Of a stretch of DNA of 64,000 nucleotides, positions 11,560-29,035 are shown in pieces. Source of the stretch: an uncultured Planctomycetota bacterium (GTDB lineage: Bacteria; Planctomycetota; PLA2; JAEUHO01); the NCBI GenBank assembly GCA_963752285.1, contig CAVVXN010000001.1:96001-160000 (forward strand). The letters are read 5' to 3'. Each line of letters opens with the position of its first letter. The first letter of the stretch is position 1. Under the pieces are notes generated by a model. The model did no database searches. It had not been told where the DNA came from and saw only the letters and a list, made by a program, of their open reading frames with translations. A program made the translations under genes and the position numbers.

Positions 11560-11663
11560 CGGCGATCGGACCCCTCGTCGCCGTACTTCGACATCGACGG
11601 CCGGCGTCGCCGGTATCCTCGGTGTCCTACCCCCTCGGGCCCGGACGGCCCACGGCGAGCCCC

Positions 11664-12389: not shown

Positions 12390-12428
12390 CCGCGAGGGGA
12401 ACGCGACGCGCGTGCGCGGTCCCCGCGA

Positions 12429-14204
12429 CTAGTCGAGCACCTCCCCGTCCGCGTCGGGGAGGTGTCCCCGGTCCGAGCTCATCGGCGACGACTCCGCAGC
12501 ATCGAGCAGGACGTCCACGACGAACGGGCCCTTGGCCGCCAGCGCCCGCTCGAGCGAAGGGGCGAGATCCGTCTCCGACGTGACCGTCGCACCATCCGCG
12601 CCCAGGCTCCGCGCGAACGCGACGAAGTCCGCTCGCGGGATCTCCGTCTCCCCGGGCGCGGAAACGTCCGCGCGGACGCTCGTCGCGGAGGCACGCCGAC
12701 GGGCCTCGTTCAGCACGATCCACACGGCACGCGCCCCCGCGCCGAGGGCCGTCCGGATCTCCTGCCCCTCGAGCATCGAGCGCTCGTCCACCACCGCGAC
12801 GGCCGGGCCACCCCGGCCGAGGGCCGCGCCGACCACGCCACACGCCATGCGTCCTCGCGAGCCGGCTGTCGCGCCCGCGCGGTAGCGCCGCGGTCGATCG
12901 AAGCGGAGGTGATGGTTCGCCCACGCGAACGCGGGACCCGACTCGGACAGCACGACCGCGTCACTGCGCTCGACCACGACGTGCTGCACCGCATCCATCA
13001 ACGCCTGCGGTCGGACCGCGCCCTCCTCGCGGAGATCGACGGCGAGAGGATGGACCGGGAGGGAGGACCGCGGCGAAGGCCCGGCCTCGCGAAGACACGG
13101 CAGGAGCTCCCGCAGGAAGGCGCTCACGTCCGCCTGGATCCCGAACGTGGGTACGTGCGGGTAGGCGGCGCCGAACACCGCCGGGTCGAGGTCCACGTGC
13201 ACGACGCCGCCGGGCGGGACGCGCCGGCGATCCCACTGCGACGTGAGCTCGCCGAGCCGCGTACCGAGAACGAGCAGGCGTCCGGGCCGCTCCCGTTCCA
13301 GGAACGAGAGGGCCGACGCATGCCCGCCGACTCCCGTGACCCCCACGAAGAGCGGGTGGGACTCGGGGAACACGCCCTTTCCGCGCGGCGAGCACATCAC
13401 GCCGGCTCCGGTCCGCTCGGCCACGGACCGCACGAGTGGCGACGCGTCGCGCGCGCCGGCCCCGACCCAGATCGCGAACCCCGCCCTCTGCAGGAGCAGA
13501 GCGGCGCGACGCGCGTCCGCGTGGGCCACCGAGGGAACCGCGACGTCGATCGGCGCGTCGAGCGAGAGGGCCACGCGATGCGCGTCCACGGAACGCGCCT
13601 GGCTCGACGTCGGGACGGAGACGTGGGCGACGAAGCGATGCCGCCCGGCCAGGCCGACGAGCAGGCGTCGAACGACCTCGGGCAGGTCGTCGCCTCCCAA
13701 CACCGGCACGGCGAGGTCGAAGAGGTGCGTGTCGTGAAGCGCCCCCTGGACCGCGGCGTACGGGCTCGTCTCCCCGGCGGCGCCGCGTCCCCACTTCGAG
13801 ACGCCCGTCGAGGACGAGAGCAGGACGAGCTTCGCGCGGTCCGCGCGGGCCGCGGCCACCCCGGGCAGGGCCTCGAGGACACCGTGGTCCGCGGCGACCA
13901 CGACCGCCGCGGGCCTGCCCGTCGCGTGGTGGTGCTCGAGCGCGGCGAACACCGCGCCGCCGGCGTCGCGCAGCGGCACGAAGTCGATCGCCGAGCGCGC
14001 GACCGCTTCGTAGAGCGGGCCGCGCGTCCCGTCCCGGGCCCCGAACACGCGCCCGACCCCTGCGCGGCGCAGCCCCTCGACCAGCGCCGCCGCGACCGTG
14101 ACGGTCCGCGCCGGTGCCCCCCGAGACGGCTCGGCTCGACCCGTCTCCCGTTCCCGGCCTGGCCGCGCTCGCGTATCGAGGGAGTCCGTACGGGTCACCG
14201 ACAT
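12429..14204 (-). CDS. ThDP-dependent acetolactate synthase/ScyA-like protein with degenerate cofactor motifs
   Basis: AIWVGAGAR..VMCSPRGKGVFPESHP..GVTGVGGH..LVLGTRLGE..GPFVVDV. The expected GDG motif reads DERS. Confidence 0.8.
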   Translation of the reverse strand: MSVTRTDSLDTRARPGRERETGRAEPSRGAPARTVTVAAALVEGLRRAGVGRVFGARDGTRGPLYEAVARSAIDFVPLRDAGGAVFAALEHHHATGRPAAVVVAADHGVLEALPGVAAARADRAKLVLLSSSTGVSKWGRGAAGETSPYAAVQGALHDTHLFDLAVPVLGGDDLPEVVRRLLVGLAGRHRFVAHVSVPTSSQARSVDAHRVALSLDAPIDVAVPSVAHADARRAALLLQRAGFAIWVGAGARDASPLVRSVAERTGAGVMCSPRGKGVFPESHPLFVGVTGVGGHASALSFLERERPGRLLVLGTRLGELTSQWDRRRVPPGGVVHVDLDPAVFGAAYPHVPTFGIQADVSAFLRELLPCLREAGPSPRSSLPVHPLAVDLREEGAVRPQALMDAVQHVVVERSDAVVLSESGPAFAWANHHLRFDRPRRYRAGATAGSRGRMACGVVGAALGRGGPAVAVVDERSMLEGQEIRTALGAGARAVWIVLNEARRRASATSVRADVSAPGETEIPRADFVAFARSLGADGATVTSETDLAPSLERALAAKGPFVVDVLLDAAESSPMSSDRGHLPDADGEVLD

Positions 14205-15301: not shown

Positions 15302-16320
15302 CGATCGACGCCGATTCCCGTGACGCGTTCCTGGTGGATCAGGCCACGAGGGCCGACGCCGGTCCCTGCCCCGACGCGAGCGTGGTCGCCGGCCTCGTCG
15401 AGGGGGCGCTGCTCGACGACGAGGGGGAGCGCGTCGCCGCGCACGCGGCCCTGTGCCCGGCATGTCGGGAGGCGATCGTGGTCCTGGCCGAGGCCGGCGA
15501 GGGCGACGTGCGGTCCCGTGCGCCCAGGCCCGCGCCCGCCCCGCGCGCGCGGCCCCGCCCGCGGCGGCTCCCACCCCGCCGGCTCGTCGCGATCGCCGCC
15601 CTCGTCCTCGTCGGGGTCGGCGCCCTCGCGCTCCTCGCCCACGCCCCCACCGAGAGCGACGCGCACGCCGGCACCGACGCCCGCCTCCTCGCCGCCGCGC
15701 GGGACCTCGCGTCGGCCGACCCGGGCCTCTTCGCGCGCTTCACGCCCCTCACGCACGACGAGCGGACCGCGGCCCGCGGCGTCCGCGAGCGCGGCGGGCT
15801 CGTGCTCCTCGGGCCGCGGGAGGTCGTGCTCTCGGACCGCCCCGCGTTTCGCTGGGAGACGGTCCCGGGATCGACGCGCTACGAGGTGACGGTCCTGGGG
15901 GCCGACGACCGGCCGATCTGGACCCGGGCCGCGACCGGCACGAGCCTCCCCTATCCCGACGACGAGCCCGCCTTGGAGGCGGGCACGCGCCACGCGTGGG
16001 CGCTCTCGACACAGGGCGTCCTCGGCGGGCGTACCGAGTCGCGCGCCACGTTCACCGTCGCCTCGCCCGACCAGGCTGACGCCTTCGCGCGCGCCCGGCG
16101 CGCGATCACGGACCGCGCGCCCGCCGATCTGGCCGCGCTCCTCTGTGCGCACTGGGCGCTCCGGCACGGTCTCCTCGACGAGGCCGAGCAGCTCGCGAAC
16201 GCGGCGCTGGCCGACGATCCCGACGACGACGCGCGCGTGGAGACGCTCCGCGCGGTCCTGCGCCGGCGCGGCGCGAGCACCACGGGCGCGGCCCGGGGGT
16301 CCGGGGCGGGAACGCGATGA
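15298..16320 (+). CDS. Zinc-finger (HxxxCxxC) anti-sigma factor with TM helix and extracytoplasmic domain
   Basis: CPD..HAALCPACRE; hydrophobic LVAIAALVLVGVGALALLA; ATGA overlap with the sigma stop. Confidence 0.85.
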   Translation: MTIDADSRDAFLVDQATRADAGPCPDASVVAGLVEGALLDDEGERVAAHAALCPACREAIVVLAEAGEGDVRSRAPRPAPAPRARPRPRRLPPRRLVAIAALVLVGVGALALLAHAPTESDAHAGTDARLLAAARDLASADPGLFARFTPLTHDERTAARGVRERGGLVLLGPREVVLSDRPAFRWETVPGSTRYEVTVLGADDRPIWTRAATGTSLPYPDDEPALEAGTRHAWALSTQGVLGGRTESRATFTVASPDQADAFARARRAITDRAPADLAALLCAHWALRHGLLDEAEQLANAALADDPDDDARVETLRAVLRRRGASTTGAARGSGAGTR

Positions 16321-19289
16321 CGCGCCGCGCGGCCCGGTCCCTGGCCCTCCTCGTCACCGTGGCCCTCGCAGTGCTGGGCGGGCCCCCGGCGGCGGCCGGC
16401 GAGTCTTCGCGCTCCAACGTGAAGCTCGACCAGGCCGCATTCCGGTTCGTGAAGGCCTTCTCGGACGGCGACGAGGACGCGATGCGCGCCGTGGCCGAGG
16501 ACCGCTCGTACGACGCCCGAAGCCTCGCCGACCGGATGCTCGCGCTCTACGAGTACGCGTGGACTCGGTCCTCGCCGCGGCAGAAGGTCATCATGGACGC
16601 GATCGGCGCCTACGCGGAGCGCGCCCGCTCGCGGCCCGAGGTGCGGGGACTGCCCCAGGTCGTCGCGGCCTGGGCCCTCCTCGCGCCGAAGGACCTGGCG
16701 CGAAACCAGTGGTTGCGCGGGATCGTGGACCAGGTGCACCAGGCGGAGGACCGGACGGAACCGGCGAAGGTCCTCGAGATCCTCGCGACGGCGAAGTCCG
16801 CGCTGGCCGTGCAGCCGCCCACCCTGTCGGTGCTCGTGTTGCGCGAGTCCGAGGCCCGCGCCCTCCGGAGCACGGGTCGCCTGGACGAGGCGGTCGCCGC
16901 CTGCGGGCGGGCGAAGGACGTCGCCGAGGCGCTCCGCTCGCCTCGGGACGAGGCCTACTGCCTCGAGCTGCTCGGCCTGGTCCAGGCCCGCGCCAACCGG
17001 ACCGCCGAGGCGGCGGCGGCGTACGAGGAGGCGCTGGCGATCCGGGAGGACTTCGGGCCCCCGAGGAACGCGACGTGGGTGCGGGTCGAGCTCTGCCGCG
17101 CGTGGTCCGAGCTCGGGAGGCTCGCCGACGCGCTCGCGGTCGGCGAGCGTGCGCTGAGCGACCAACGCGACCTCGGCGACCCGGATCTCCTCGGGCGGAA
17201 CCTCTTCGTGCTCGCGTGTGCGCGGCGCGACCTCTTCGATCCCGCGGGCGCGCGGGACCTCTACGAGCGGGCCGCCGCGGCGTACCGAACCGCCAAGGAC
17301 GACCTGGCCTCGGCGACGGCCCTCTCGGGCTCCGCGTGCATGCGCCTGACGAACCCGGCGCGCGACCTCGACGGCGCGAAGGAGCGATACGAGCAGGTTC
17401 TCGCGACCGCGAAGGCCCACGACGACGCGTACCTCGCGCTCCTGGCCACGTACGGGCTCGGCAGCACGGCGCGGGACCGCGGCGACACTCGGGAGGCCGT
17501 CGAGCTCCACGAGCGCGCCCTCGCCATGGCGACCGATCAGCAGAAGCAGGACATCGCCATGTACGTCCTCGCCGCCCTCGGCTCCGACCACCTGGTGCGC
17601 GGCGAGCCGAAGGCGGCCGTGGACGCGCTCGAGCGCGCCATCCGGATCGCGGACGAGATGCACTTCCCCCAGCGACGGCTCGGGATCACGCACCGTCTCC
17701 TCGCGCGGGCCTACCACGAGAGCGGTCGTCCGCACGACGCCGTGGTGGCCGCCGAGGCCGGGCTCGTGCTGCGGCGGGACCGGGCGCGGGAGCTCGGAGA
17801 GGGCTTCAGCGCCACGGAGCAGGCGGGGGTCCGGGCGACCGCGGACACGGGCATCCTGGCCGCCCTCCGCTGGGTCGCGCGCGAGCCGCGGGCGCGCGCG
17901 GACGCGGCCGCCGCCGCCTTCCTCCTCTCCGAGGCGGCGCGCGCCGAGTTCCTCGCCGACCGGCTGATCGACGCGGGCGACCCGATCGAGACGCGGGAGG
18001 AGCGCGCGGAGCAGGAGTCCGCACGCCGGAGGCTCGACGACGCGAGACGGAGCGTCCTCCTCCTCGCGTTCGGCGAGGCGCGGGACGACGCGGCCCTCGC
18101 GGCCGCGAAGAAGGCGTACGAGGAGGCGGGCGCCCGGCTCCGCGAGCTCCGCGCGCGCGCCGACCTGCGTCGCGACACGGCGCGCGGGGGCGCGGACCCG
18201 GTCTCGCTCGAGGAGGCGCAGCGGGCGCTGCCCGAGGGCACGGCCCTCGTCTTGTACCAGGTCACCTACGAGCGGCTCGTGGCCGTGGTCGTCACGCGCG
18301 GGGGCGCGGACCTGGTGGACCTGGGCGAGCCCGCCCCGGTGATCGAGGCGTCGAAACGATGGCTCGACGCGATCGCGTCTCCGGACGGGGAGGAGGGCGA
18401 CCTGCCCGAGACCCTGTACGACGCGCTCGTCGGACCGCTCGCGTCGCGCCTCACGGACGCGCGAACGCTCCTCGTCGGTCGCGACGGCCCCCTCGAGTAC
18501 CTCCCCTTCGAGGCGCTGGTCCATCGGGAGGACGGGCGCCCGCGACGCGCCGTCGAGCGGTGGACGATCTCGTACGTGCCCTCGGCGACCGTCTACGCGA
18601 CGCTCGAGAGCCGTGCCGACTCCGCGCCCCCGCGGGACTCGCTCGTCGCCCTGGGCGACCCCGTGTATCCCGGCGAGACCGGTCGGCCGGACGCGGAGCG
18701 GAGCGTGGCGCGCACGCGCGGGCTCGCGAGCCTCGATCGGCTGTTCGCGAGCGGCGACGAGGTCCGGGCGGTCGCGGCGCGCTTCGCCCCCGCCCGTCGG
18801 ACGGTCCTCCTTCGCGAGGACGCGACGCGTGCGCGCCTCGCCGACGCCGTCCGGGCCGACGGGAACCGGCTCCGCGTCCTCCACCTCGCGTGCCACGGCT
18901 TCGTGGACGAGCGGATTCCGTACGGCTCCGGCCTCGTCCTCTCCGGGGCCGACGTTTTGAGCGTGGACGACGTGTCCCGGATGCGCCTGTCCGCGGACGT
19001 CGTCGTGCTCTCCGCCTGCGAGAGCGGCCGGGGCCGGGCGCGGGTGGGCGAGGGGATCCTCGGCCTGCCGCGCGCGTTCCTCACCGCGGGGGCGACGCGC
19101 GTGGTCGCGGCGGACCGCGCCATCGCCGACGAGGACGCGCGCGACCTCCTGTCCCGGTTCTACGACGCGTATCTCGACGGCGGTCTCGCCCCCGCGGCCG
19201 CCCTCCGCGCGGCCAAGCTCCAGCGCATCCGCGCGGGCGGCCCCGCGGCGCACCCGTACGCCTGGGCGGGCCTCGTGCTCTGGGAGTGA
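16317..19289 (+). CDS. Secreted TPR + CHAT (caspase-like) protease
   Basis: Signal peptide, TPR-like repeats, LPFEAL, LHLACHG, VVLSACESG, GEGILGL, HPYAWAG. Confidence 0.93.
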   Translation: MTRRAARSLALLVTVALAVLGGPPAAAGESSRSNVKLDQAAFRFVKAFSDGDEDAMRAVAEDRSYDARSLADRMLALYEYAWTRSSPRQKVIMDAIGAYAERARSRPEVRGLPQVVAAWALLAPKDLARNQWLRGIVDQVHQAEDRTEPAKVLEILATAKSALAVQPPTLSVLVLRESEARALRSTGRLDEAVAACGRAKDVAEALRSPRDEAYCLELLGLVQARANRTAEAAAAYEEALAIREDFGPPRNATWVRVELCRAWSELGRLADALAVGERALSDQRDLGDPDLLGRNLFVLACARRDLFDPAGARDLYERAAAAYRTAKDDLASATALSGSACMRLTNPARDLDGAKERYEQVLATAKAHDDAYLALLATYGLGSTARDRGDTREAVELHERALAMATDQQKQDIAMYVLAALGSDHLVRGEPKAAVDALERAIRIADEMHFPQRRLGITHRLLARAYHESGRPHDAVVAAEAGLVLRRDRARELGEGFSATEQAGVRATADTGILAALRWVAREPRARADAAAAAFLLSEAARAEFLADRLIDAGDPIETREERAEQESARRRLDDARRSVLLLAFGEARDDAALAAAKKAYEEAGARLRELRARADLRRDTARGGADPVSLEEAQRALPEGTALVLYQVTYERLVAVVVTRGGADLVDLGEPAPVIEASKRWLDAIASPDGEEGDLPETLYDALVGPLASRLTDARTLLVGRDGPLEYLPFEALVHREDGRPRRAVERWTISYVPSATVYATLESRADSAPPRDSLVALGDPVYPGETGRPDAERSVARTRGLASLDRLFASGDEVRAVAARFAPARRTVLLREDATRARLADAVRADGNRLRVLHLACHGFVDERIPYGSGLVLSGADVLSVDDVSRMRLSADVVVLSACESGRGRARVGEGILGLPRAFLTAGATRVVAADRAIADEDARDLLSRFYDAYLDGGLAPAAALRAAKLQRIRAGGPAAHPYAWAGLVLWE

Positions 19290-19532: not shown

Positions 19533-20417
19533 TCAACGGTAGAGGATCGAGAGGAGCACCAGGCGCTCCCCGTGGCGCAGAGGCTCTCGCGCGTGGACCA
19601 CCCCGCACTCCATGGCGACGGCGGAGCCCGGCTCGATCTCGTGCCGGTGGACCGCGCCGCGCGGGCCGTACGTCAGGAGCGCCGAGCCCGAGGAAGACCC
19701 GTTCGGCAGCGCGCGGTCCACGCACACGAGCAGGTTCACGGTGAAGCCCGGGTCGTCGGCGTGGGGCCACGTGTGGTCGCGCGGCTTCGTGTAGTAGAGG
19801 TACTTCGCGACGAGACCCGGCGAGACGTCGCGCCCCACGGCGCGGGCTACGGCGCGGCAGAGTCGGGCATCGACGGCGAGCTCGCACCCTCGCCGTCCGG
19901 GCCGCCGGCCACTCGCGACGCGCCCGACGCGAAGGCCCCGCGAGGCGTCGCGTCGAAGGGCGTGGAGCCGCCGCGCGTCGAGCCCGGGGAGCGCGTCGAG
20001 CGGCACGACGGCGGTGGGGTAGCCGATCCCGAAGAAGTGCACCAGCGCGTTCCAGCCCGCGCGCAGCACGGGATCGGTCGGGACGCGACCGTCCGGGGCG
20101 AGCCCGGTCGGCGCGTACTGGAGCAGGATGCGGAGCGGACGGTCCGCGCCGGCCCCGCGACGCTCGATCGTCCGCGCGAGGCGGCGCGCGAGGCGGAGCG
20201 CCGTCCGGCCCCAGGTGGCCCGCGGTCCCGCCGCGCGTCGCCACGCGGCGGCGTGGGTACGGAGGACGCGGACCCGCGGGTCCCGCCGGCCCGAGACGTG
20301 GCGCAGGTTGATGTCGTCCTCGGGCAGGCGGTACGCGAGCTCGCCCGCGGTCAGGAGCAGGTCGAGGAGCGCCCGGGCGGGCGGGTCGTCGCAGAACGCC
20401 TCCCGGGCGCGGGGCAC
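19533..20417 (-). CDS. Putative 2OG-Fe(II) oxygenase-fold protein (start uncertain; ATG 20485 is one base out of frame)
   Basis: C-terminal YLYY..HTWPHADD..VNLL..GVVHAREPL..GERLVL gives HxD...H...R spacing. Confidence 0.65.
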   Translation of the reverse strand: MPRAREAFCDDPPARALLDLLLTAGELAYRLPEDDINLRHVSGRRDPRVRVLRTHAAAWRRAAGPRATWGRTALRLARRLARTIERRGAGADRPLRILLQYAPTGLAPDGRVPTDPVLRAGWNALVHFFGIGYPTAVVPLDALPGLDARRLHALRRDASRGLRVGRVASGRRPGRRGCELAVDARLCRAVARAVGRDVSPGLVAKYLYYTKPRDHTWPHADDPGFTVNLLVCVDRALPNGSSSGSALLTYGPRGAVHRHEIEPGSAVAMECGVVHAREPLRHGERLVLLSILYR

Positions 20418-20497
20418 CGCGTCGCGGAAGGGCAGGGAGTAGCGGATCGCCGCGGTGGGGCGCGCGAGCCGCCCCCGCGGAGCATCGAAGCCTACGA

Positions 20498-20617
20498 CTA
20501 CTGCTCCTGCCCCAGCGAGGCGCGGCCCCCCTTGACCTTGGCGGCGTCCGCCTTGCGAACGGGCAGGTCCTTGGGGCTCTTCGCGGACGCGTTCTTGCTC
20601 GGCTTCTTCGAGGGCAT
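20498..20617 (-). CDS. 39-aa double-glycine leader precursor peptide (absent from the ORF track)
   Basis: GGAGG RBS, then MPSKKPSKNASAKSPKDLPVRKADAAKVKGG-RASLGQEQ, TAG. Almost all codons end in G/C. Confidence 0.82.
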   Translation of the reverse strand: MPSKKPSKNASAKSPKDLPVRKADAAKVKGGRASLGQEQ

Positions 20618-20701
20618 CACCGATCCTCCGGGTTGGGGTGGCGACTACTATGTCAATCCCCGCGGCGGCGGCAAGGCCCTGGGCGTGGAGGTGAGAGGCG
20701 C

Positions 20702-21679
20702 TTGGCCGAACCCGAGCTCGAACCGCCCGCGGCGCTCACGGCCACGGTCTTCGAGATCGCCGGACGGCCGGTCACGGTGCGAGACGTGGTTCGTGCGGCG
20801 GACGCACGAGGGGCCCTCGACGACGCCAAAGGCCGATTCGTCGCGGGCCTCGAGGCCGAGGCGCGGGCCCGGGAGGCCGGGGAGGCCCCCCCCGACGACG
20901 CCGTCGAGGCGCGCGCGAACGAGATCCGGTACGAGCGCAACCTGATCACCGCCGAGGAGGCGGAGTCGTGGCTTTCGGCCCGGGGTCTCACGTACGACGC
21001 GCTCCTCGATCACTGTCGTCGCGAGCTCCTCCGGGAGGCCGAGGCCGCTGTGGCCGACCGCGCGAGAGGCCTCGTACCGCCCGAACGCGAGGCCGACTTC
21101 CTCGCCTACCTCGTGTTCTCGGGCGAGCTCGATGGCCAGGCGCGGGAGCTGGCGCGACGCCTCGTGGTGAGCGACCCGGACGGGGACCTCTCGCCCGACC
21201 GCCTGCGGTCGGTGGAGGCGTCCTACCGACGACACCTGTCGGCGCTCACGGCGGAGCGGGAACGCGAACGCGTCCTGGCCCTCCTGCGCCTCCCCTTGAC
21301 GCGGGTGGACGTCGAGGTCCTCGACGCGCCTTCGCTCGACGCGGCGCGGGAGGTCGTCCTGTGCCTTCGCCAGGACGGCGCCGACACCGCGGCGCTCGCG
21401 GCGGAGACCGGGTACCCCCACGCGCGGGCTTCGCCGTTCCTGGACGACCTCGAGGACGACGTGCGCGACGCGCTCCTCTCCGCGGCGCCCGGCGACGTGC
21501 TGGAACCGGTCGAGGAGCCCCCGCGCGTGCGCGTCTTCCGCCTGCGCTCGAAACGCGAGCCGACGCTCGAAGACCCCGAGGTGCGCGAGCGCGTGGACCA
21601 GCGGATCGTCGACGCGCACTTCGCCGAGCGGGTCGCGCGGACCGTGAGGTGGCGGCTCTCGGACGAGCGGAACCGATGA
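20702..21679 (+). CDS. SurA/PpiC (parvulin)-like chaperone associated with peptide exporters
   Basis: IRYERNLITAEEAESWLSARGLT; AAREVVLCLRQDG; LLSAAPGDVLEPV..VFRLRSKREPTL. Stop overlaps the PCAT start. TTG start inferred. Confidence 0.65.
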   Translation: MAEPELEPPAALTATVFEIAGRPVTVRDVVRAADARGALDDAKGRFVAGLEAEARAREAGEAPPDDAVEARANEIRYERNLITAEEAESWLSARGLTYDALLDHCRRELLREAEAAVADRARGLVPPEREADFLAYLVFSGELDGQARELARRLVVSDPDGDLSPDRLRSVEASYRRHLSALTAERERERVLALLRLPLTRVDVEVLDAPSLDAAREVVLCLRQDGADTAALAAETGYPHARASPFLDDLEDDVRDALLSAAPGDVLEPVEEPPRVRVFRLRSKREPTLEDPEVRERVDQRIVDAHFAERVARTVRWRLSDERNR

Positions 21680-24600
21680 GCGAGCTCCTCCGAGAGAGCC
21701 CCCTCGAACGCACGGTCTTCCGGTTCCTCGGCGCCGGGGCCCGCGCCGCCCTGCTCGAACGGTTCACCCCGTGCCGCTTCGCGTTCGGCGACGTCGTCGT
21801 ACGCCAGGGCGAGGAGGCCGACGCCTACTACGTGATGACGGAGGGACGTGCGCGGGTCCTCCGCACGACCGAGACGGGCGAGGAGATCTCGCTGCGGGTC
21901 CTCCGGACGGGGGACGAGTTCGGCGAGGCCGCGCTCTCGCCCGGCGGCGCGCGGTCGGCCACGGTTCGGTGCAGCAGCCGCGTCGAGGTCCTCCGCCTCG
22001 AACGGACCGCGTTTCTCGCCCTGGCCCACGAGAACCCCGCGATCCGTCACGCGGTCGAGATCGCGGCCCGGTTCAAGACGCTCCACGGGTTCCTGTACGA
22101 GTTCAGCAACTTCGGCCGCCTGTCGGCGCCGTGCGTCCAGCGGTTGGTGGAGAGCCTCGAGCCCGAGCCGCGCGCGCGCGGCGAGGTCTTCCTCCGCGAG
22201 GGCGACCCGCCCGGCCCGATGTACGTGATCCAGCAAGGCCGCGTCCGGCTCTTCACGACCCGCGGCGGTCGCGAGCACAACCTCGCATTCCGGCGGGAGG
22301 GCGAGTTCTTCGGCGAGATGTCCGCCTTGAGCGGCACGCCGCGGTCCGCGTCCGCCGAGGCGACGACCGACACCGTGCTCCTCGCGCTTCGACCGCAGGC
22401 GGTGAACCGCCTCCGGGAGGAGTTCCCGGATCTCGGCCGCCTGCTCGAAGAACGCATCGCCCAGTACCGGTCCGACGAGGCCGCGCGCGTACCGCTCGAC
22501 TTCGCCACCGAGATGCTGCCGGCGGACGCGTCCGTCGAGAACAAGGTCGGCCTGGACCTCGAGGACGAGACGCCCGCCCCCGGTCCCGACGCCGCGGCGG
22601 TGAAGGTCCCGCGCCTGCGGCGTCGGTTCCGGTCCTTCCCCTACGTCGCGCAGATCGACGAGATGGACTGCGCCGCCGCGGCACTCGCCATGGTCTGCCG
22701 CCACCACGGGCGCAAGGTGGCGCTGCCCCGCATCCGCGAGCTGTGCCAGACCTCCACCGACGGCACGAGCCTCAAGGCGATCTGCCACGCCGCCCGCGAG
22801 CTGGGCCTGGCGGCGCGCGCGGCGAAAGTGTCCGCGCGCGAGATCGACGGCCTGCCGCTGCCGGCGATCGCCCATTGGGAGGGGAACCACTGGGTCGTCG
22901 TGCACGCGGTGGACCGCGGCCACGTCCACGTCGCCGATCCCGCGCAGGGCCTCCGCAAGATCGACCGGCGCGCGTTCCTCGAACGCTGGACCGGCTACGC
23001 CGCCCTCTTCGACTACACGACCGCCTTCGAGCACGCCCCCGAGGGCCGGCCGGCGCTCTCCTGGATCTGGCCCTTCTTCGGACGCCACCGCGCGGTCCTC
23101 GTGAAGGTGCTCCTCCTCGCCGGTGTCGTCAGCGCGCTCCAGCTCGTCCTGCCGCTCCTCACGCAGACGGTGATCGACTCCGTGATCGTCGGCAAGGACG
23201 TGAGCCTCCTCGCGACCATCATGCTCGGCATCGGCGCGGCCCTCGTGTTCATGGTCCTCGCGAGCGTCGTCCAGCAGTACCTGCTCGCCTACGCGGCGGT
23301 GCGCATCGACTCGGCGATCCTCGACTTCCTGACGCGCCGGCTGCTCGCGCTCCCGATGCGGTACTTCCAGACCCGGCGCACCGGCGACATCCAGCGTCGC
23401 CTGGACGGCGCGGAACAGATCCGGGAGCTCGTGGTCCAGCACGGCATCGGCAGCGTCCTCGCGATCGTGCTGCTCCTCGGCTGCCTCGGGCTGATGTTCG
23501 CGTACAGCGCGACCCTCGCGCTCGCCTTCCTCGCGGTTGCGCCGCTGTACGGCGTGCTGGTCTGGCTGTCGGTGCGCTTCTTGAAGCCCATCCTCGCCGA
23601 CCTCGAGGCGAGCCGCGGCCGGTACCGGGCGCACCAGATCGACGCGATCAAGGGCATCGAGGCGGTGAAGGCCGCGTCCGCCGAAGGCGCGTTTCGCGAC
23701 GCGATGCTCTCGCAGTTCCTCTCGGTCACCCGGCAGATGTTCCGCGGAACGTTCTTCTTCATGGGCTACGACAGCGCGATCCAGACGCTCAGCGTGGTCG
23801 CGACGGCCCTCTTCCTCTGGGTCGGCGCCCGCCAGGTCCTCTCGGGCGCGATGTCCGTGGGCGGGTTCGTCGCGTTCAACACCCTCGCGATGATGGCGAA
23901 CGCCTCGATCCTCCGGCTGCTCCAGTCGTGGGAGAAGGCGCTCTCGGCCTCCGTCCTCCTCCACCGGCTCGAGGACGTGGTCGCGCAGGAGCCCGAGCAG
24001 GGCAGCGACCACGCGCGGCTCCGGCCCGTCCCGAGCCTCGAGGGCCGGATCGAGCTCCGGGGCGTCGGCTTCCGCTACGGCGGGCCCGAGTCCCCGCGCA
24101 TCCTCCAGGACGTCACGCTGGACGTGCCCGCCGGGCAGAGCCTCGCGCTCGTGGGACGGAGCGGCTGCGGCAAGACGACCCTCGTGAAGCTCGTGGCCGG
24201 GCTCCTCGAGCCGACGGAGGGCACGATCCTCTTCGATCGCATGGACCTCGCGACGCTCGACCACGCCGCGCTCCGCCGCCACGTCGGCATCGTCCTCCAG
24301 GAGAACCACGTCTTCGACGGGTCGATCCGCGACAACATCGCGTTCGGCGATCCCGACCCGGACCTCGGCCGCGTGCTCTGGGCCGCGCGCATGGCGAACG
24401 CCCACGAGTTCGTGATGCGGCTGCCGCTGGGCTACGAGACACGCGTCGGCGAGTCGGGCCTCGCGCTCTCGGGGGGCCAGAAGCAGCGTGTCGTGATCGC
24501 CCGCGCGCTGTACGCCGATCCCGCGGTCCTGATCTTCGACGAGGCGACCAGCGCGCTCGACTCCGAGTCCGAGCGCGCCATCCAGGAGAGCATGGGCCAG

Positions 24601-24774
24601 CTTCTCGCGGGCCGGACGTCGCTCGTCATCGCCCACCGCCTCTCGACGATCCGCGACGCCGACCGGATCGTCGTCCTCGAGCGGGGGAAGATCGCCGAGG
24701 AGGGCACACACGACGAGCTGATGGCGCTCCGCGGCCTCTACTTCCACCTCTCGAGCCAGCAGGCGACGGGCTGA
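21676..24774 (+). CDS. Peptidase-containing ABC transporter (2x cNMP-binding, C39 peptidase, TMD, NBD)
   Basis: GDEFGE..RSATV and GEFFGE..RSASA; QIDEMDCAAAALAMV and HWVVVHAVD; GRSGCGKTT, LSGGQKQR, DEATS, AHRL. Confidence 0.95.
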   Translation: MSELLRESPLERTVFRFLGAGARAALLERFTPCRFAFGDVVVRQGEEADAYYVMTEGRARVLRTTETGEEISLRVLRTGDEFGEAALSPGGARSATVRCSSRVEVLRLERTAFLALAHENPAIRHAVEIAARFKTLHGFLYEFSNFGRLSAPCVQRLVESLEPEPRARGEVFLREGDPPGPMYVIQQGRVRLFTTRGGREHNLAFRREGEFFGEMSALSGTPRSASAEATTDTVLLALRPQAVNRLREEFPDLGRLLEERIAQYRSDEAARVPLDFATEMLPADASVENKVGLDLEDETPAPGPDAAAVKVPRLRRRFRSFPYVAQIDEMDCAAAALAMVCRHHGRKVALPRIRELCQTSTDGTSLKAICHAARELGLAARAAKVSAREIDGLPLPAIAHWEGNHWVVVHAVDRGHVHVADPAQGLRKIDRRAFLERWTGYAALFDYTTAFEHAPEGRPALSWIWPFFGRHRAVLVKVLLLAGVVSALQLVLPLLTQTVIDSVIVGKDVSLLATIMLGIGAALVFMVLASVVQQYLLAYAAVRIDSAILDFLTRRLLALPMRYFQTRRTGDIQRRLDGAEQIRELVVQHGIGSVLAIVLLLGCLGLMFAYSATLALAFLAVAPLYGVLVWLSVRFLKPILADLEASRGRYRAHQIDAIKGIEAVKAASAEGAFRDAMLSQFLSVTRQMFRGTFFFMGYDSAIQTLSVVATALFLWVGARQVLSGAMSVGGFVAFNTLAMMANASILRLLQSWEKALSASVLLHRLEDVVAQEPEQGSDHARLRPVPSLEGRIELRGVGFRYGGPESPRILQDVTLDVPAGQSLALVGRSGCGKTTLVKLVAGLLEPTEGTILFDRMDLATLDHAALRRHVGIVLQENHVFDGSIRDNIAFGDPDPDLGRVLWAARMANAHEFVMRLPLGYETRVGESGLALSGGQKQRVVIARALYADPAVLIFDEATSALDSESERAIQESMGQLLAGRTSLVIAHRLSTIRDADRIVVLERGKIAEEGTHDELMALRGLYFHLSSQQATG

Positions 24775-26267: not shown

Positions 26268-27194
26268 TTGGATCCCGGGTCGTCCGTTCCGCTCCTGCCG
26301 TACCGTGAACCGCGCTGGGAACGCTCGGTCGCGAGCGTGGAGATCGACGACGAGAGAGGGCGCGCGCTCCTCGCGGCGTGGCCCGAGCTCGTCGGGCGGC
26401 CCTGGCGGCATCTCGAGGGCGGCCTTCGGTCGTCCGGTTTCCGGGTCGGCGACGACCTCGTGCTGCGCGTCGCGTCGTCCCCCGAACAGGACCTGGAGCG
26501 GGAGGCCGCGCTCCACGAACGCATGGCCGGGCGCGTCCGCGTGCCCCGCGTGCGGGGTCGCGCCCCCGGCGCGCTGCTCTTGGAGCACGTCCCGCACGCC
26601 GAGCTGCCCGACACGGCGGCCGCCGGTGGCGCCGCGGGACGCGCCGCGGCGCGAATCCACGCGTTCGGGTACGAGCGGAGCGGGTTCCTCGACGCGCACC
26701 TCGACGTCGTCGATCCGTTCCCCGACGCGCTGACCGGGCTCCTCGGGTGGACGACGTCGTGTCTCGCCGGGCCGGCCGGGCGGACCCTCGGCCCGCGTGT
26801 CGCGCGCGTCCGTGACGCGTGGCAGGAGGCGCACGCGGCGCTCGTCCGCGCCACCGAGCGACCCGTCCTCCTGCACGCCGACTTCAAGCCCGCGAACGTG
26901 AAGTGGCTGCCCGGCGAAGGGGACGTGGTCGTGTTCGACTGGGAGTTCTCGTGGGCCGGCCCCGCGCTGATGGACGTCGGACAGATGTTCCGTTGGGGCG
27001 CGTCGGCGGAGTTCACCTCGGCCTTCGCGTCGGCGTACCGGGCCGAGGGGGGAACGATGTCCGAGGGGTGGGCGCGGACCGCGGCGCTCCTGGACCTCTT
27101 CAACCTGGTCGGCCTCCTCGACCACCTCGAGCCGATGCCGCGCCGCGACGGCGACCTGCTGGACGCCGTGGATCGGACCCTCGGGACGCGGTAG
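26268..27194 (+). CDS. Aminoglycoside phosphotransferase (APH)-family kinase
   Basis: LLHADFKPANV and DWEF motifs; start codon uncertain. Confidence 0.85.
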   Translation: MDPGSSVPLLPYREPRWERSVASVEIDDERGRALLAAWPELVGRPWRHLEGGLRSSGFRVGDDLVLRVASSPEQDLEREAALHERMAGRVRVPRVRGRAPGALLLEHVPHAELPDTAAAGGAAGRAAARIHAFGYERSGFLDAHLDVVDPFPDALTGLLGWTTSCLAGPAGRTLGPRVARVRDAWQEAHAALVRATERPVLLHADFKPANVKWLPGEGDVVVFDWEFSWAGPALMDVGQMFRWGASAEFTSAFASAYRAEGGTMSEGWARTAALLDLFNLVGLLDHLEPMPRRDGDLLDAVDRTLGTR

Positions 27195-27286
27195 CCCCGC
27201 CGACGTCGAAGGCCGACGGCGTGCGGGACGCAGGCGGGGCGGGTACGCTCGCGCCCCCAGGGCACGGAGGCGGGAGGAGCGTCGGG

Positions 27287-29035
27287 ATGGCCGCCGACAC
27301 GAACCGGGTCGCCGGGATCGACCTCGGGACCACGAACAGCTCGATCGCCGTGTTCGAGGACGGACGCGTCCGCGTCCTTCCGAACGCGCTGGGCGAACCC
27401 CTCACGCCCTCCGTGGTGGCGTGGGACGAGCGCGAGCGGCGCATGCTCGTCGGCCGCACGGCGAAGGACATCTGGGCGCTCCACCCGGACCGTGGCGCCG
27501 GCCTCTTCAAGCGCGCCATGGGGACGAACCGCGTGTACCGGGTCGGACCGCAGCTTCTGACGGCGATCGAGCTGAGCGCGCTCGTCCTCCGGGATCTCAA
27601 GGAGAACGCCGAGCGCTCGCTCGGCGAGATCGTCGAGCGGGTCGTCATCACGGTGCCCGCCTACTTCAACGAGGACCAGCGCCTCGCGACGCGGCAGGCC
27701 GGCGAGCGCGCGGGATTCTGCGTCGAGCGCATCCTGAACGAGCCCACGGCGGCGGCCATCGCGCACGGGCTCCACCGGCGCAAGAGCGAGGCGGTGCTGC
27801 TGGTGTTCGATCTCGGCGGCGGCACGTTCGACGTGTGTGTCATGGAACGCTTCGAGGGGAACCTCGAGGTCAAGAGCGTCGCGGGCGAGAGCATGCTCGG
27901 CGGCGAGGACTTCACGCGTCGCATCGCCGGCGCGGCGCTCGAGCGCTTCGGGCTCCCCTTCGAGATCGCGGAGATGGAGGATCCGGAGGCGCTGGCCCTG
28001 CTCGTCAAGCGGGCCGAGCTCCTGAAGCGCGGTCTCGCCGGCGCGACGACGGGGAGCCCCCCGCCCGCCCTCCGCATCCCGCCGTTCGGCACGCGTCTGA
28101 AGGAGGAGCAGTCGGTCCCGGTCGGCGCCGCGATCCTCGACGACGCCTTCGCGCCCCTGCTCTCCCGGCTGACCGGGCCCGTGCGCACCGCGCTCCGGAG
28201 CGCGCACCTCACGCGCACCGACGTGGACGAGCTGATCCTGGTGGGCGGCGCCACGCGGCTGCCGCAGGTCGTCCAGCTGGTCTGCGAGCTCCTGCCGGTC
28301 GCTCCGCACGACGGCGTGGATCCCGACCTGGCCGTCGCGTACGGCGCGGCGATCCAGGGCGCCCTCTACGCCCGCGAGGAGGCGGTCTCGGACCTCGTGG
28401 TCACCGACATCGCGTCCCACAGCCTCGGCGTGGACACGTGCAAGGTCTTCGGCGCCGAACATCGCGGGGGCTACTTCTCCCCGATCATCCACCGGGGAAC
28501 GGTGATCCCCACCTCGCGCGCGACCACCTTCACCACGATCGACGCGAACCAGACGGTCATGGTCCTCGGCGTGTACGAGGGCGAGGCGCGGCACGTGAAG
28601 GACAACCGGAAGATCGGCGAGCTGCGCGTGAGCGGCATCCCGAAGGGACCGCCGGGTAAGGGCGTCGAGGTCACGTTCACGTACGACCTCGACGGCATCC
28701 TCCAGGTGGACGCGCGGGTTCGCGACACGGGCGCCACGTTCTCGAAGGTGTTCCACCGCACGGGGCGAGAGCTCGACGCCGACGAGGCCGCGGCGGCGGC
28801 CGCCCGCCTCGCGGAGCTCAAGGCCGACCCGTGCGAGGCGCCCGCCGTGCGCGATCTGATCGCGCGGGCCGAGCTCTTGCTCCGCGACGTGAGCGCCGAG
28901 GAACGACGGCAGCTCGAGCAGGGGCTCGACGCCCTCGAGCACGCGCTCCTCGACCGCGACGCCGCGCGCATCGAGGAGGCGCGCGCCCACCTCGAGTCGC
29001 TCTGCCAGGAGCTCGACGGCGGGGACCGCTGGTGA
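27287..29035 (+). CDS. Hsp70 family chaperone, HscC-like
   Basis: GIDLGTTNS, VITVPAYF, NEPTAAA, DLGGGTFD, LVGGATR; FTYDLDGIL and a short C-terminus, as in HscC. Confidence 0.92.
   Translation: MAADTNRVAGIDLGTTNSSIAVFEDGRVRVLPNALGEPLTPSVVAWDERERRMLVGRTAKDIWALHPDRGAGLFKRAMGTNRVYRVGPQLLTAIELSALVLRDLKENAERSLGEIVERVVITVPAYFNEDQRLATRQAGERAGFCVERILNEPTAAAIAHGLHRRKSEAVLLVFDLGGGTFDVCVMERFEGNLEVKSVAGESMLGGEDFTRRIAGAALERFGLPFEIAEMEDPEALALLVKRAELLKRGLAGATTGSPPPALRIPPFGTRLKEEQSVPVGAAILDDAFAPLLSRLTGPVRTALRSAHLTRTDVDELILVGGATRLPQVVQLVCELLPVAPHDGVDPDLAVAYGAAIQGALYAREEAVSDLVVTDIASHSLGVDTCKVFGAEHRGGYFSPIIHRGTVIPTSRATTFTTIDANQTVMVLGVYEGEARHVKDNRKIGELRVSGIPKGPPGKGVEVTFTYDLDGILQVDARVRDTGATFSKVFHRTGRELDADEAAAAAARLAELKADPCEAPAVRDLIARAELLLRDVSAEERRQLEQGLDALEHALLDRDAARIEEARAHLESLCQELDGGDRW

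What the first reader, a model, noticed from the sequence alone, without database searches (positions are those of the whole stretch)
19533..24774. Candidate undescribed RiPP system: hidden GG-leader peptide, 2OG-Fe oxygenase, PpiC-like chaperone and cNMP-domain PCAT
Seen: a 120-bp ORF missed by the track (20617->20498, GGAGG RBS) encodes MPSKKPSKNASAKSPKDLPVRKADAAKVKGG|RASLGQEQ. Directly downstream on the same strand is an HxD..H..R oxygenase-like gene. Divergent from them is a translationally coupled PpiC-like gene and a C39-peptidase ABC transporter with intact Cys and His. Known: C39 PCATs cleave after double-Gly leaders and export the core, and 2OG-Fe(II) oxygenases act as RiPP tailoring enzymes. 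Inference: an 8-aa core, RASLGQEQ, is oxidatively modified and exported, possibly as a signal. No Lan, YcaO, radical-SAM or ATP-grasp enzyme is present, so I cannot place it in a class I recognise.
Basis: partly seen in the sequence, partly recalled or inferred. Interest (0 to 1): 0.88.

Follow-up and report, generated by a model that had tools for sequence, protein, structure and literature searches.

The report
Hidden exported peptide with its own oxygenase
A tiny conserved gene encodes a leader-bearing peptide that sits beside a previously unclassified iron oxygenase and a peptide-cleaving exporter, which looks like a rare, undescribed system for making and secreting a very short modified peptide.

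Summary
The 39-codon ORF (20498-20617, minus strand) is a real gene. It has a GGAGG ribosome-binding site and coding-type codon composition. Twelve further family members in other DNA share a near-invariant leader, [KT]DL..[KR]K..A.KVKGG, followed by a 6-11 residue core. In 3 of 3 loci with DNA available it lies directly upstream of the same oxygenase.

That oxygenase matches no Pfam or NCBIfam model. It folds confidently (pLDDT 95.7) into a prolyl-hydroxylase-like 2OG-Fe(II) domain with an invariant HxD...H triad, preceded by an N-terminal helical domain whose first ~75-100 residues only close relatives share.

The divergent operon is conserved in a second genome. It encodes a SurA/PpiC-like protein whose stop overlaps (ATGA) the start of a transporter with two cNMP domains, a C39 peptidase and ABC domains.

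The export half is a known kind: the cyanobacterial "long-type" transporter with SurA, as in HetC, whose substrates are mostly unknown. The peptide family and the oxygenase subfamily appear undescribed.

Modification of the peptide by the oxygenase is inferred from gene linkage only. The chemistry, the product and its role are unknown.

I rate it a new variant of a known kind, interest 0.62. The scan had noted this ORF before on this same DNA (e1-4928122).

The parts
20498..20617 (-). Precursor peptide gene (39 aa plus stop). It has a Lys-rich N-terminus, the conserved leader KDLPVRKADAAKVKGG and an 8-residue core, RASLGQEQ.
   Evidence: ORF and sequence. Codon-position GC 0.61/0.49/0.98: with control. 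13 family members, this peptide included. Third-position changes dominate between three DNA copies.
20625..20629 (-). GGAGG ribosome-binding site, 7 nt upstream of the peptide's ATG.
   Evidence: Equivalent GAGGAG and AGGAG sites precede the peptide gene in L002 and L007.
19533..20417 (-). It has an N-terminal helical domain (residues 1-132) and a double-stranded beta-helix domain (133-294) with H219, D221 and H275.
   Evidence: No Pfam or NCBIfam hit. 255 representatives at E<=1e-3. Invariant triad. AF2 pLDDT 95.7. Foldseek and VIA-align hits to P4H/PHD-type and other 2OG oxygenases.
20618..20701 (.). 84-bp divergent intergenic region between the peptide ATG and the PpiC-like TTG. It holds both ribosome-binding sites. 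No promoter could be assigned.
   Evidence: The promoter/terminator scan found nothing and there was no Rfam match.
20702..21679 (+). SurA/PpiC-like protein (325 aa) with no N-terminal hydrophobic segment, so predicted cytoplasmic. Its stop overlaps the transporter's start (ATGA).
   Evidence: PF13145 at E 7e-4, below the cut-off. 5 of 15 family members hit Rotamase_2 weakly. Atlas neighbours carry Rotamase/SurA_N. The family profile finds true Rotamase+SurA_N_3 proteins next to C39 transporters. Hydropathy. ATGA overlap.
21676..24774 (+). Peptidase-containing ABC transporter (1032 aa): two cNMP-binding domains, a C39 peptidase (about 22636-23013), a transmembrane domain and an ATPase.
   Evidence: Pfam. 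NCBIfam best hits are HlyB and NHLM transporters, below their cut-offs. Catalytic residues aligned to PCAT1, ComA and LahT. Only C39 domain in the genome.

Best explanation
This is a four-gene cassette that makes, probably oxidises, cleaves and exports a very short ribosomal peptide.

Shown or directly read from sequence:
- A 39-aa precursor with a basic, conserved double-Gly leader and a 6-11 residue core is encoded immediately upstream of a dedicated oxygenase.
- The oxygenase has a prolyl-hydroxylase-like 2OG-Fe(II) core with an HxD...H iron triad, plus an N-terminal helical domain whose first ~75-100 residues only close relatives share.
- A predicted cytoplasmic SurA/PpiC-like protein is translationally coupled to a transporter with two cNMP domains, a C39 peptidase and ABC domains. 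The C39 catalytic residues are intact.

Inferred:
- The oxygenase uses its helical domain to hold the conserved leader and hydroxylates, or otherwise oxidises, a core residue.
- The only nearly invariant core feature is a Gly at position +5, usually followed within two residues by Glu or Gln.
- The SurA-like protein keeps the precursor competent for, or hands it to, the transporter.
- The C39 domain cuts after KVKGG and the ABC part moves the core across the inner membrane.
- The cNMP domains gate the transporter in response to a nucleotide, as ppGpp binding does for HetC.
- No membrane-fusion gene is adjacent, so delivery may be to the periplasm.
- The product is too short for a typical bacteriocin, so it is more likely a signal or small effector.
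For: Peptide is real and conserved:
- 13 members with an invariant D-L...A.KVKGG.
- Synonymous-type changes dominate between three DNA copies: third-position differences 5-6 against 1-3 at positions 1 and 2.
- A ribosome-binding site is present in all three copies.

Linkage to the oxygenase:
- The peptide gene lies directly upstream of the oxygenase in the window, in G003 and in metagenome locus L007, 3 of 3 readable loci.
This is an inferred co-location.

Distribution:
- Peptide and close oxygenase occur together, and only in G000 and G003, among the 40 genomes of the class.

Module conservation:
- The full module, including the ATGA coupling and the cNMP N-terminus of the transporter, is conserved in G003 with different flanking genes.

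Oxygenase identity:
- AF2 pLDDT 95.7.
- VIA-align Z 14-15 to 6n1f, PHD2, Trichoplax PHD with HIF peptide, and PPHD with EF-Tu.
- Foldseek E about 1e-5 to 1e-6.
- H219, D221 and H275 invariant in 80 sequences.

Transporter:
- Catalytic Gln/Cys/His/Asp are intact.
- It is the only C39 domain in the genome, and this is the only peptide of the family in the genome.

Analogues:
- The same SurA-like protein plus C39 transporter pairing sits beside other hidden GG-leader peptides in Planctomycetota, in L048 and L053.
- HetC precedent: a cNMP domain that binds ppGpp, an unknown exported peptide and no adjacent membrane-fusion gene (PMC10986499, passages).
Against: - No experiment or computation here shows that the oxygenase touches the peptide.
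- Gene context is known for only three loci. One of them (L007) lacks the divergent SurA-like/transporter pair on its 1.8-kb contig.
- The context of the KDLKVKK...GP subgroup (P0164-P0167) is unknown.
- No core residue with a reactive side chain is invariant, so no target site can be named.
- The canonical 2OG-binding Arg position is not conserved. It aligns to Leu against PolD, so 2OG use is inferred from fold and triad only.
- The oxygenase has no recognisable RiPP recognition element.
- No canonical start codon precedes the homologous N-terminal residues of the oxygenase in this genome.
- No HlyD-type partner lies nearby, and none in the genome reaches the TIGR01843 cut-off. Export beyond the inner membrane is therefore unsupported.
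- Expression is untested.
Confidence: 0.55

Rival explanations
1. The peptide is an unmodified double-Gly substrate of the transporter, either a class-II-like secreted peptide or a signal. The oxygenase works on something else, such as a small molecule or a cellular protein, and is merely co-transcribed.
For: Structural neighbours include small-molecule enzymes (HalB, PolD, AviO1, TlxI). Distant family members in Planctomycetota are HalD-like and sit in unrelated contexts without transporters, in 7 of 7 loci inspected. Other planctomycete SurA-like/transporter modules carry GG peptides without any oxygenase. No invariant modifiable core residue exists.
Against: The peptide-then-oxygenase order with a short spacer (28-90 nt) is kept in 3 of 3 loci across about 50% protein divergence. 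The first ~75-100 residues of the oxygenase are covered only by the close subfamily, the one whose members lie next to the peptide in all 3 readable loci. The two genes share the same patchy distribution.
Confidence: 0.2
2. The product is an antimicrobial (a microcin- or bacteriocin-like weapon), not a signal. Otherwise the biosynthesis is the same.
For: C39 transporters classically export bacteriocins and microcins. The patchy, probably horizontally acquired distribution (1 of 40 relatives) and the variable cores are typical of conflict systems.
Against: Cores of 6-11 residues without Cys or hydrophobic stretches are far shorter than known class II microcins. No immunity-like small membrane protein gene was seen in the cassette. 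The genome has a single precursor copy.
Confidence: 0.15
3. The functional part is the conserved basic N-terminal fragment, which stays in the cell after cleavage and acts as a regulator. The short C-terminal piece is only an export or cleavage handle. This is the working model proposed for the unknown HetC substrate.
For: The leader is far more conserved than the core. A model of this kind is discussed for HetC (PMC10986499, discussion passage).
Against: Leader conservation is equally expected from recognition by the peptidase, the oxygenase and a chaperone. The core keeps a near-invariant Gly and a length limit, which implies selection on it as well.
Confidence: 0.07
4. The short ORF is only a translated upstream ORF that controls expression of the oxygenase, and its GG motif is incidental.
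For: It lies 28-90 nt upstream of the oxygenase on the same strand in all three loci.
Against: Amino-acid-level conservation of a specific 16-residue motif ending in GG holds across 13 sequences. The peptide lies next to the genome's only C39 peptidase. No RNA family or terminator-like structure lies between the genes.
Confidence: 0.03

Closest known systems
HetC of Nostoc PCC 7120 and the cyanobacterial 'long-type' C39 ABC transporter + SurA (+HlyD) bacteriocin gene clusters, groups I/II/VI of Wang, Fewer and Sivonen 2011 (PMC3140520; PMC10986499)
   Same: The transporter has an N-terminal cNMP/CAP_ED domain, a C39 peptidase, and ABC transmembrane and ATPase domains. It is paired with a rotamase/SurA-type protein. 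As for hetC, no membrane-fusion gene is adjacent. Precursors are basic rather than acidic, as noted for the HetP and DUF37 candidates in those clusters.
   Different: This transporter has two cNMP stretches, and its SurA-like partner is highly divergent (below the Pfam cut-off) and lacks a signal peptide. A clear GG-leader precursor lies 1 kb away, whereas the HetC substrate is unknown and group I clusters averaged 0.35 precursors. A dedicated oxygenase is attached. Orthology to HetC was not tested.
Protein/peptide prolyl-4-hydroxylases of the PHD/P4H type (PHD2, Trichoplax PHD with HIF peptide, Pseudomonas PPHD with EF-Tu, viral collagen P4H)
   Same: Double-stranded beta-helix core, HxD...H triad, Z 13.9-14.5 with rmsd 3.0-3.5 A over 150-156 residues. 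A weak profile match to 4iw3 (E 0.004).
   Different: 12-20% identity. No Pfam 2OG-FeII_Oxy_3 hit for the window protein. An extra 130-residue helical N-domain is present. The usual 2OG-binding Arg position is not conserved. The leader Pro is replaced by Arg or Lys in 6 of 13 peptides, so proline is not an obligatory target.
RiPP pathways with Fe/2OG tailoring or cleavage enzymes: ThoJ in thioamitides, the cinnamycin/duramycin Asp hydroxylases (recalled), and the alpha-KG HEXXH enzymes PflC/PosC that cleave the backbone oxidatively to leave an amide
   Same: A ribosomal precursor with a leader and an iron/2OG-type oxygenase encoded next to it. ThoJ appears among the structural hits (6zyk/6zyl, Foldseek E 5e-5, Z 11.3). 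Oxidative backbone cleavage by a 2OG enzyme has precedent (PMC12636437, abstract).
   Different: In those pathways the oxygenase accompanies a class-defining enzyme (lanthionine synthetase, YcaO/TfuA, MNIO). Here it is the only candidate modifying enzyme. PflC/PosC are HEXXH proteins, a different fold.
NHLP/Nif11 and other double-Gly leader families with dedicated C39 transporters
   Same: A GG cleavage motif with hydrophobic residues at -4, -7 and -12, next to a C39 ABC transporter. The best NCBIfam transporter hits include TIGR03796 (527 bits).
   Different: The transporter scores below the TIGR03796 cut-off (853 bits). The leader is short and Lys-rich and matches no NCBIfam precursor model (0 of 12 peptides at E<=10). 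The core is 6-11 residues.

Membership tests
2OG-Fe(II) oxygenase superfamily | Double-stranded beta-helix (jelly-roll) fold | tested here: met
   AF2 model at pLDDT 95.7. Residues 133-294 align to many 2OG oxygenases at Z 11-15. Foldseek gives 232 PDB matches at E<=0.001 and every listed top match is a 2OG/non-haem iron enzyme or a homologue, apart from one uncharacterised protein (2rg4).
2OG-Fe(II) oxygenase superfamily | HxD/E...H iron-binding facial triad | tested here: met
   H219, D221 and H275 are the only invariant columns in 80 aligned homologs. They align to the HxD and distal His of PolD (9blq).
2OG-Fe(II) oxygenase superfamily | Basic residue (Arg/Lys) binding the 2OG C5 carboxylate | tested here: inconclusive
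   The Arg of PolD aligns with Leu in this family. R285 is variable (R/H/K/S/Q). R277, two residues after the distal His, is invariant in 13 close homologs. Its role could not be checked without model coordinates.
Pfam 2OG-FeII_Oxy_3 (PF13640) / Asp_Arg_Hydrox (PF05118) / HalD (PF23169) | Score at or above the Pfam gathering threshold | tested here: not met
   The window protein has no such hit even at E<=10. The G003 homolog hits PF05118 at E 0.019, 15.2 bits against 22.6. Of 55 relatives, 2 gave sub-threshold hits.
Peptidase-containing ABC transporter (PCAT/AMS) | N-terminal C39 domain with catalytic Cys and His (plus the Gln and Asp) | tested here: met
   PF03412 at E 3.7e-37. The residue-by-residue alignment to PCAT1 shows Gln, Cys, His and Asp conserved. 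The numbering of the PCAT1 residues is recalled.
Peptidase-containing ABC transporter (PCAT/AMS) | ABC transmembrane domain plus ATPase in the same polypeptide | tested here: met
   PF00664 at E 2e-38 and PF00005 at E 2e-33.
Peptidase-containing ABC transporter (PCAT/AMS) | Cleaves a double-Gly leader substrate during export | not testable with these tools
   A candidate substrate with a GG motif lies 1 kb away. Cleavage itself needs an assay.
Long-type (cNMP) PCAT + SurA cluster, HetC type | cNMP/CAP_ED domain N-terminal to the C39 domain | tested here: met
   PF00027 at E 4e-42 with 2 stretches. The same N-terminus is present in G003.
Long-type (cNMP) PCAT + SurA cluster, HetC type | Adjacent rotamase/SurA-type gene | tested here: inconclusive
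   The window protein hits Rotamase_2 at only 20.8 bits against a cut-off of 27, and 5 of 15 family members hit weakly. The family profile does retrieve proteins with above-threshold Rotamase and sub-threshold SurA_N_3 matches next to C39 transporters.
Long-type (cNMP) PCAT + SurA cluster, HetC type | Adjacent HlyD-type membrane-fusion gene (present in every cyanobacterial group per PMC3140520) | tested here: not met
   None was found among the ORFs scanned from 3.5 to 37 kb of the window. No genome hit reaches the TIGR01843 cut-off. HetC itself also lacks one nearby. HlyD is present in the related loci L048 and L051.
[quoted passage not shown] | Gene-encoded precursor with a leader and a core | tested here: met
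[quoted passage not shown] | An enzyme that modifies the core peptide | not testable with these tools
   Only genetic linkage is available.
Established RiPP classes (lanthipeptide, YcaO-dependent, radical-SAM, ATP-grasp) | Presence of the class-defining enzyme in the cluster | tested here: not met
   No such Pfam domain occurs in the four cluster genes or in the flanking ORFs scanned.
Known double-Gly precursor families (NHLP, Nif11 and other NCBIfam precursor models) | Match to the family model | tested here: not met
   0 of 12 peptides match any NCBIfam model at E<=10. The window peptide has no Pfam hit.

The most novel reading that the evidence does not exclude
The cassette defines a new RiPP class. 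A prolyl-hydroxylase-like 2OG oxygenase, carrying its own helical leader-binding domain, attacks the one nearly invariant core residue, Gly +5, at its alpha-carbon. The resulting alpha-hydroxyglycine breaks down and leaves a C-terminally amidated tetrapeptide (for this genome the first four core residues). A nucleotide-gated HetC-type transporter releases that tetrapeptide as a diffusible signal. If so, hidden GG peptides of this kind would also be the long-sought class of substrates of the widespread cNMP-transporter/SurA modules.
Probability: 0.07. Interest if true: 0.9.

Novelty: new variant of a known kind. Interest (0 to 1): 0.62.

Why it matters
There are three reasons.

1. It gives a concrete, testable substrate for a HetC-like cNMP-gated peptidase transporter. 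In cyanobacteria the substrate of this transporter type is still unknown, and most clusters of that type have no recognised precursor.

That would be a minimal ribosomal-peptide pathway and possibly new peptide chemistry.

3. It shows that such precursors are small enough to be overlooked. I found further unannotated GG-leader peptides next to the same transporter/SurA-like pair in other Planctomycetota, so the phenomenon may be broader than this one cassette.

Tried and rejected
- Complex prediction of the oxygenase (80-row alignment) with the peptide (12-row alignment): no verdict, ipSAE 0.01 in both runs, controls not run. It says nothing either way.
- First structure prediction with 6 sequences: unusable, pLDDT 49. 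Repeated with 80 sequences.
- Sequencing runs: no RNA holder listed. The 8 DNA runs each held only a small share of the words (0.05-0.14), and I did not lay reads.
- The search for related loci with the broad alignments A2 and A3 failed for lack of a conserved stretch. With A1 it found only one genome locus (the G003 contig) and one 1.8-kb metagenome contig.
- Profile-profile comparison of the oxygenase family with the SurA-like family, to test for a shared leader-binding domain: no relation, probability 0.2%.
- SurA-like family profile against PDB sequences: no hit, best E 1.7.
- Promoter/terminator scan and Rfam on the cluster: nothing.
- A search for more family peptides or 'DL..KK...GG' peptides in the window's genome found none credible.
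- The phylum hit in G157 (E 0.007, inside a 530-aa open frame) was judged spurious.
- Peptide hits P0168-P0171 (E 1-6) were dropped as not significant.
- The 50-residue C-terminal fragment upstream in L007 matched nothing in the held loci or the genome.
- Literature: four full-text searches found no paper describing this peptide family or oxygenase subfamily. That library lacks most subscription journals.

Full report
**What is there**

The window is part of contig 1 of a 4.64-Mb, roughly 75% GC genome that is 89% complete. A relative's record title places the lineage in Planctomycetota.

- At 20498..20620 on the minus strand lies a 40-codon ORF (GTG) with an internal ATG at 20617. From the ATG it encodes MPSKKPSKNASAKSPKDLPVRKADAAKVKGGRASLGQEQ, and GGAGG lies 7 nt upstream.
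- Eighty nucleotides downstream on the same strand is a 294-codon gene, 19533..20417.
- Divergently, after an 84-bp spacer, a 325-codon gene starts at the TTG at 20702, with GGAGG 10 nt upstream. It ends in an ATGA overlap with a 1032-codon gene, 21676..24774.
- Flanking genes are unrelated: a convergent TPR-CHAT protein, a GyrI-like protein, a beta-carbonic anhydrase, a phosphotransferase, an Hsp70-like protein and others.

**Is the short ORF a gene?**

In a 75% GC genome a 40-codon ORF means nothing by itself, so I tested it three ways.

1. Composition. GC by codon position is 0.61/0.49/0.98, the pattern of true genes here. Only 20 of 3,490 ORFs of 35-50 codons in all six frames of the genome reach GC3>=0.95 with GC2<=0.50.
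2. Conservation of position. The one relative among 40 that has the downstream gene (G003, another genus of the same family) has a 44-codon ORF in the same place, MAKNDKSSPKDAPAPKPVKDLPVRKTEADKVKGGAASAGHEKLR. A 1.8-kb metagenome contig (L007) has MAKEGKEKNKKAVATKVKVKDLRLRKEHADKVKGGTTNLGEEPLT directly upstream of its homolog. All three have a Shine-Dalgarno site, and over the 16 leader codons third-position differences (5-6) exceed those at positions 1 and 2 (1-3 each).
3. Wider family. A profile of the three peptides found 13 family members at E<=0.04 among 5.8 billion proteins (nine at E<=4e-7); four further hits at E 1-6 were dropped.

All 13 peptides share a Lys-rich N-terminus. In the 12 I aligned, D-L, A and KVKGG are invariant ([KT]DL[PRK][VL][RK]K-x2-A-x-KVKGG). 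After GG there are only 6-11 residues. The cores are RASLGQEQ, AASAGHEKLR, TTNLGEEPLT, MSAGHRTLP, RTAMGVERV, RGAAGSEVLR, AIMGGENPPLR, AVMGWEKPPLR, AGNAGEQHLR, AASLGPQQ, ASTLGPA, ASSLGPLD and AITLGP.

The only nearly fixed core feature is a Gly at +5 (+4 in one peptide). It is preceded by a small or hydrophobic residue and is often followed within two residues by Glu or Gln. The leader has hydrophobic residues at -4, -7 and -12, as double-Gly leaders do; that consensus is recalled, and a version is quoted in PMC3140520. No NCBIfam or Pfam model matches the peptides.

**The oxygenase**

The 294-aa protein hits nothing in Pfam or NCBIfam, even at E<=10. A word-based search found only 4 relatives. 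A full HMMER search of 1.84 billion representatives with a 6-sequence profile found 255 at E<=1e-3 and 23 at E<=1e-30. Of 55 of these scanned against Pfam, 53 had no hit and 2 had sub-threshold hits, to HalD and 2OG-FeII_Oxy_3.

In an 80-sequence alignment the only invariant columns are H219, D221 and H275. With that alignment AlphaFold2 gave pLDDT 95.7 and pTM 0.92; the first try with 6 sequences gave pLDDT 49.

- Residues 133-294 are a double-stranded beta-helix. VIA-align against 48,161 chains gives Z 14-15 for a Burkholderia 2OG oxygenase (6n1f), Trichoplax PHD with its HIF peptide (6f0w), human PHD2 (2y33), HalB, PolD, AviO1 and Pseudomonas P4H with EF-Tu (4iw3). Fifty entries, nearly all 2OG/Fe enzymes or homologues of them, score above Z 11.
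- Foldseek agrees (E 3e-6 to 1e-4, TM on target 0.5-0.59) and includes the thioamitide RiPP hydroxylase ThoJ.
- By sequence profile the best solved relatives are PolD (E 3e-4) and P4H 4iw3 (E 4e-3).
- Residues 1-132 form a helical domain that the fold searches did not cover. Only the close relatives cover the first ~75-100 residues.

Two caveats apply. The position of the usual 2OG-binding Arg is not conserved, and an invariant R277 two residues after the distal His may replace it. In this genome the residues homologous to the relatives' N-terminus lie upstream of the GTG, with no canonical start codon.

**The transporter and its partner**

The 1032-aa protein has two cNMP_binding stretches (E 4e-42), Peptidase_C39 (4e-37), ABC_membrane (2e-38) and ABC_tran (2e-33). 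Its C39 domain aligns to PCAT1, ComA and LahT150 (E 1e-15 to 1e-20), with the Gln, Cys, His and Asp in place. It is the only C39 domain in the genome.

The upstream 325-aa protein matches Rotamase_2 only weakly (E 7e-4, 20.8 bits against 27). Five of 15 family members do so, and language-model neighbours include Rotamase and SurA_N clusters. None of the 15 has an N-terminal hydrophobic segment, so unlike SurA it is predicted cytoplasmic.

In G003 the same pair is present, with the same ATGA overlap and a cNMP-type N-terminus before the 4.5-kb contig ends. The flank beyond the oxygenase differs: a methyltransferase-like ORF instead of TPR-CHAT. The four genes therefore behave as one cassette.

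**Distribution**

- The close oxygenase and the peptide occur together, and only in G000 and G003, among the 40 genomes of the class.
- The peptide was found in no other genome of a 400-genome sample of the phylum; one E 0.007 hit inside a 530-aa frame was judged spurious.
- The broad oxygenase profile hit 7 of 400 other genomes, all distant (E 1e-8 to 4e-15). I fetched all 7 loci and scanned 58 of their 85 ORFs of 90 codons or more, leaving out those farthest from the hit. Four hits are HalD-like, and none is next to a C39 transporter. So the linkage belongs to the close subfamily, not to the superfamily.
- Equal contig length and source suggest, but do not prove, two more peptide/oxygenase pairs (P0163/P0004 at 2148 bp; P0161/P0187 at 3826 bp) and one peptide/SurA-like pair (P0160/P0173 at 2341 bp).

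**The export half is a known kind**

- Wang, Fewer and Sivonen (PMC3140520; passages read) classified cyanobacterial bacteriocin clusters. They reported that groups I, II and VI combine a 'long-type' C39 ABC transporter bearing an N-terminal CAP_ED domain with a rotamase-domain SurA protein and HlyD. [quoted passage not shown]
- HetC of Nostoc is such a transporter. Its peptidase and ATPase residues and its cNMP domain are needed for heterocyst differentiation, and the domain binds ppGpp in vitro. No membrane-fusion gene lies nearby and its substrate is unknown (PMC10986499; abstract and passages).
- A profile of the SurA-like family hit 16 of 400 other Planctomycetota genomes. I fetched 8 of these loci.
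  - In 6 of the 8 a C39-domain transporter gene is adjacent. Five of those have cNMP domains and two have HlyD.
  - The other two (L049, L054) showed none: L049's contig ends shortly downstream, and L054's hit lies 317 bp from its contig start.
  - L048 carries tandem unannotated peptides with a related leader...VADLKTKKDPKGG followed by VESLRIKLVRCEFKV or VENHNSSRSNKTN, each with a ribosome-binding site. They are followed by transporter, HlyD and the SurA-like gene. A profile search found a third copy 1.8 kb upstream and none in the other 400 genomes.
  - L053 has a classical leader (MPRTELKDLAQELSQDEMEALTGG) on an Arg-rich peptide, divergent from the SurA-like/transporter pair.
  - None of these loci has the oxygenase.

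The general module is thus 'hidden GG peptide + SurA-like protein + cNMP transporter'. The oxygenase is an accessory specific to the KVKGG peptides.

**Mechanism**

Shown: the gene order, the conservation, the fold and metal triad, the intact peptidase residues and the translational coupling.

Inferred:
- The oxygenase recognises the conserved leader through its extra domain and oxidises the core.
- The SurA-like protein acts as a cytoplasmic holder or adaptor.
- The C39 domain cuts after GG during export.
- The cNMP domains gate transport.
- With no HlyD nearby, the product may end in the periplasm.
- A 6-11 residue product suggests a signal rather than a toxin.

What the oxygenase does chemically cannot be read from the sequences. 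The leader Pro is not invariant (7 of 13), and no reactive core side chain is fixed. The conserved Gly invites the idea of alpha-hydroxylation and amide-forming cleavage, for which a 2OG-dependent precedent of a different fold exists (PMC12636437, abstract). I give this a low probability.

**Rivals and limits**

Rival readings are:
- an unmodified exported peptide with an unrelated oxygenase;
- an antimicrobial rather than a signal;
- a functional leader fragment;
- a mere upstream ORF.

They are weighed in their own sections. The main limits are that DNA context is available for only three loci, there are no expression data, there is no structure for the SurA-like protein or test of the oxygenase N-domain, and literature coverage is restricted to the held library.

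**Verdict**

The cassette is a new variant (new precursor family, new oxygenase subfamily) of a known kind of system, the HetC-type peptidase transporter clusters and RiPP-like peptide export. An earlier first-stage note of this scan (e1-4928122) flagged the same ORF on this same DNA.

Noticed in passing
window 20418-20450 (minus strand): The oxygenase frame is open upstream of its GTG. There it encodes residues (…AAIRYSLPFRDAV) homologous to the N-terminus of relatives that start MS[VI]RL..PFRA, but no ATG, GTG or TTG is available. This could be a non-canonical start, a slightly truncated protein or an assembly error.
   Followed up: partly
L007 260-472 (+) and 2-154 (+): The metagenome contig has a second GG-type ORF upstream of the KVKGG peptide (…LADLIPRKDPKGG followed by a Gly-rich 40-residue tail). 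Before it lies the C-terminal 50 residues of an unidentified protein that matched nothing in the held loci or the genome.
   Followed up: partly
L048 (G239:C8) 1587-1688, 3380-3517, 3654-3785, then 3974-9892: Three unannotated peptides with a …VADLKTKKDPKGG leader and 13-15 residue cores precede a cNMP-C39-ABC transporter, HlyD, a full-length homolog of the window's SurA-like protein and a 1,942-aa FG-GAP repeat protein.
   Followed up: partly
L053 (G312:C235) 4482-4745 (-): An ORF with a textbook double-Gly leader (…LSQDEMEALTGG) and a 63-residue Arg-rich tail lies divergent from a SurA-like gene and a cNMP-C39-ABC transporter. Its reality is untested; GC3 is 0.83.
   Followed up: no
L049 (G225:C193) about 2740-2846 (+): A candidate peptide …MPLDQAAGADVKGG followed by an acidic, Gly-rich 20-residue tail lies directly upstream of a SurA-like homolog. 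The ORF downstream of the SurA-like gene gave no Pfam hit, and the contig ends.
   Followed up: no
L020 (G236:C2) 7947-12811: A distant HalD-like relative of the oxygenase lies next to a radical-SAM protein, an S8 subtilase and, some 2-3 kb away, an ECF sigma factor and an ABC ATPase. This may be another peptide-modification cluster.
   Followed up: no
window 16317-19289 (+): A 990-aa TPR-CHAT protein (CHAT E 3e-55) converges on the oxygenase gene. It is absent from the equivalent position in G003, so it is probably not part of the cassette.
   Followed up: partly
window 26819-29035 (+): An Hsp70-family ORF lies a few kb downstream of the cassette, after GyrI-like, beta-carbonic anhydrase and phosphotransferase genes. 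The long ORF may begin upstream of the true start. No link to the cassette was seen.
   Followed up: no
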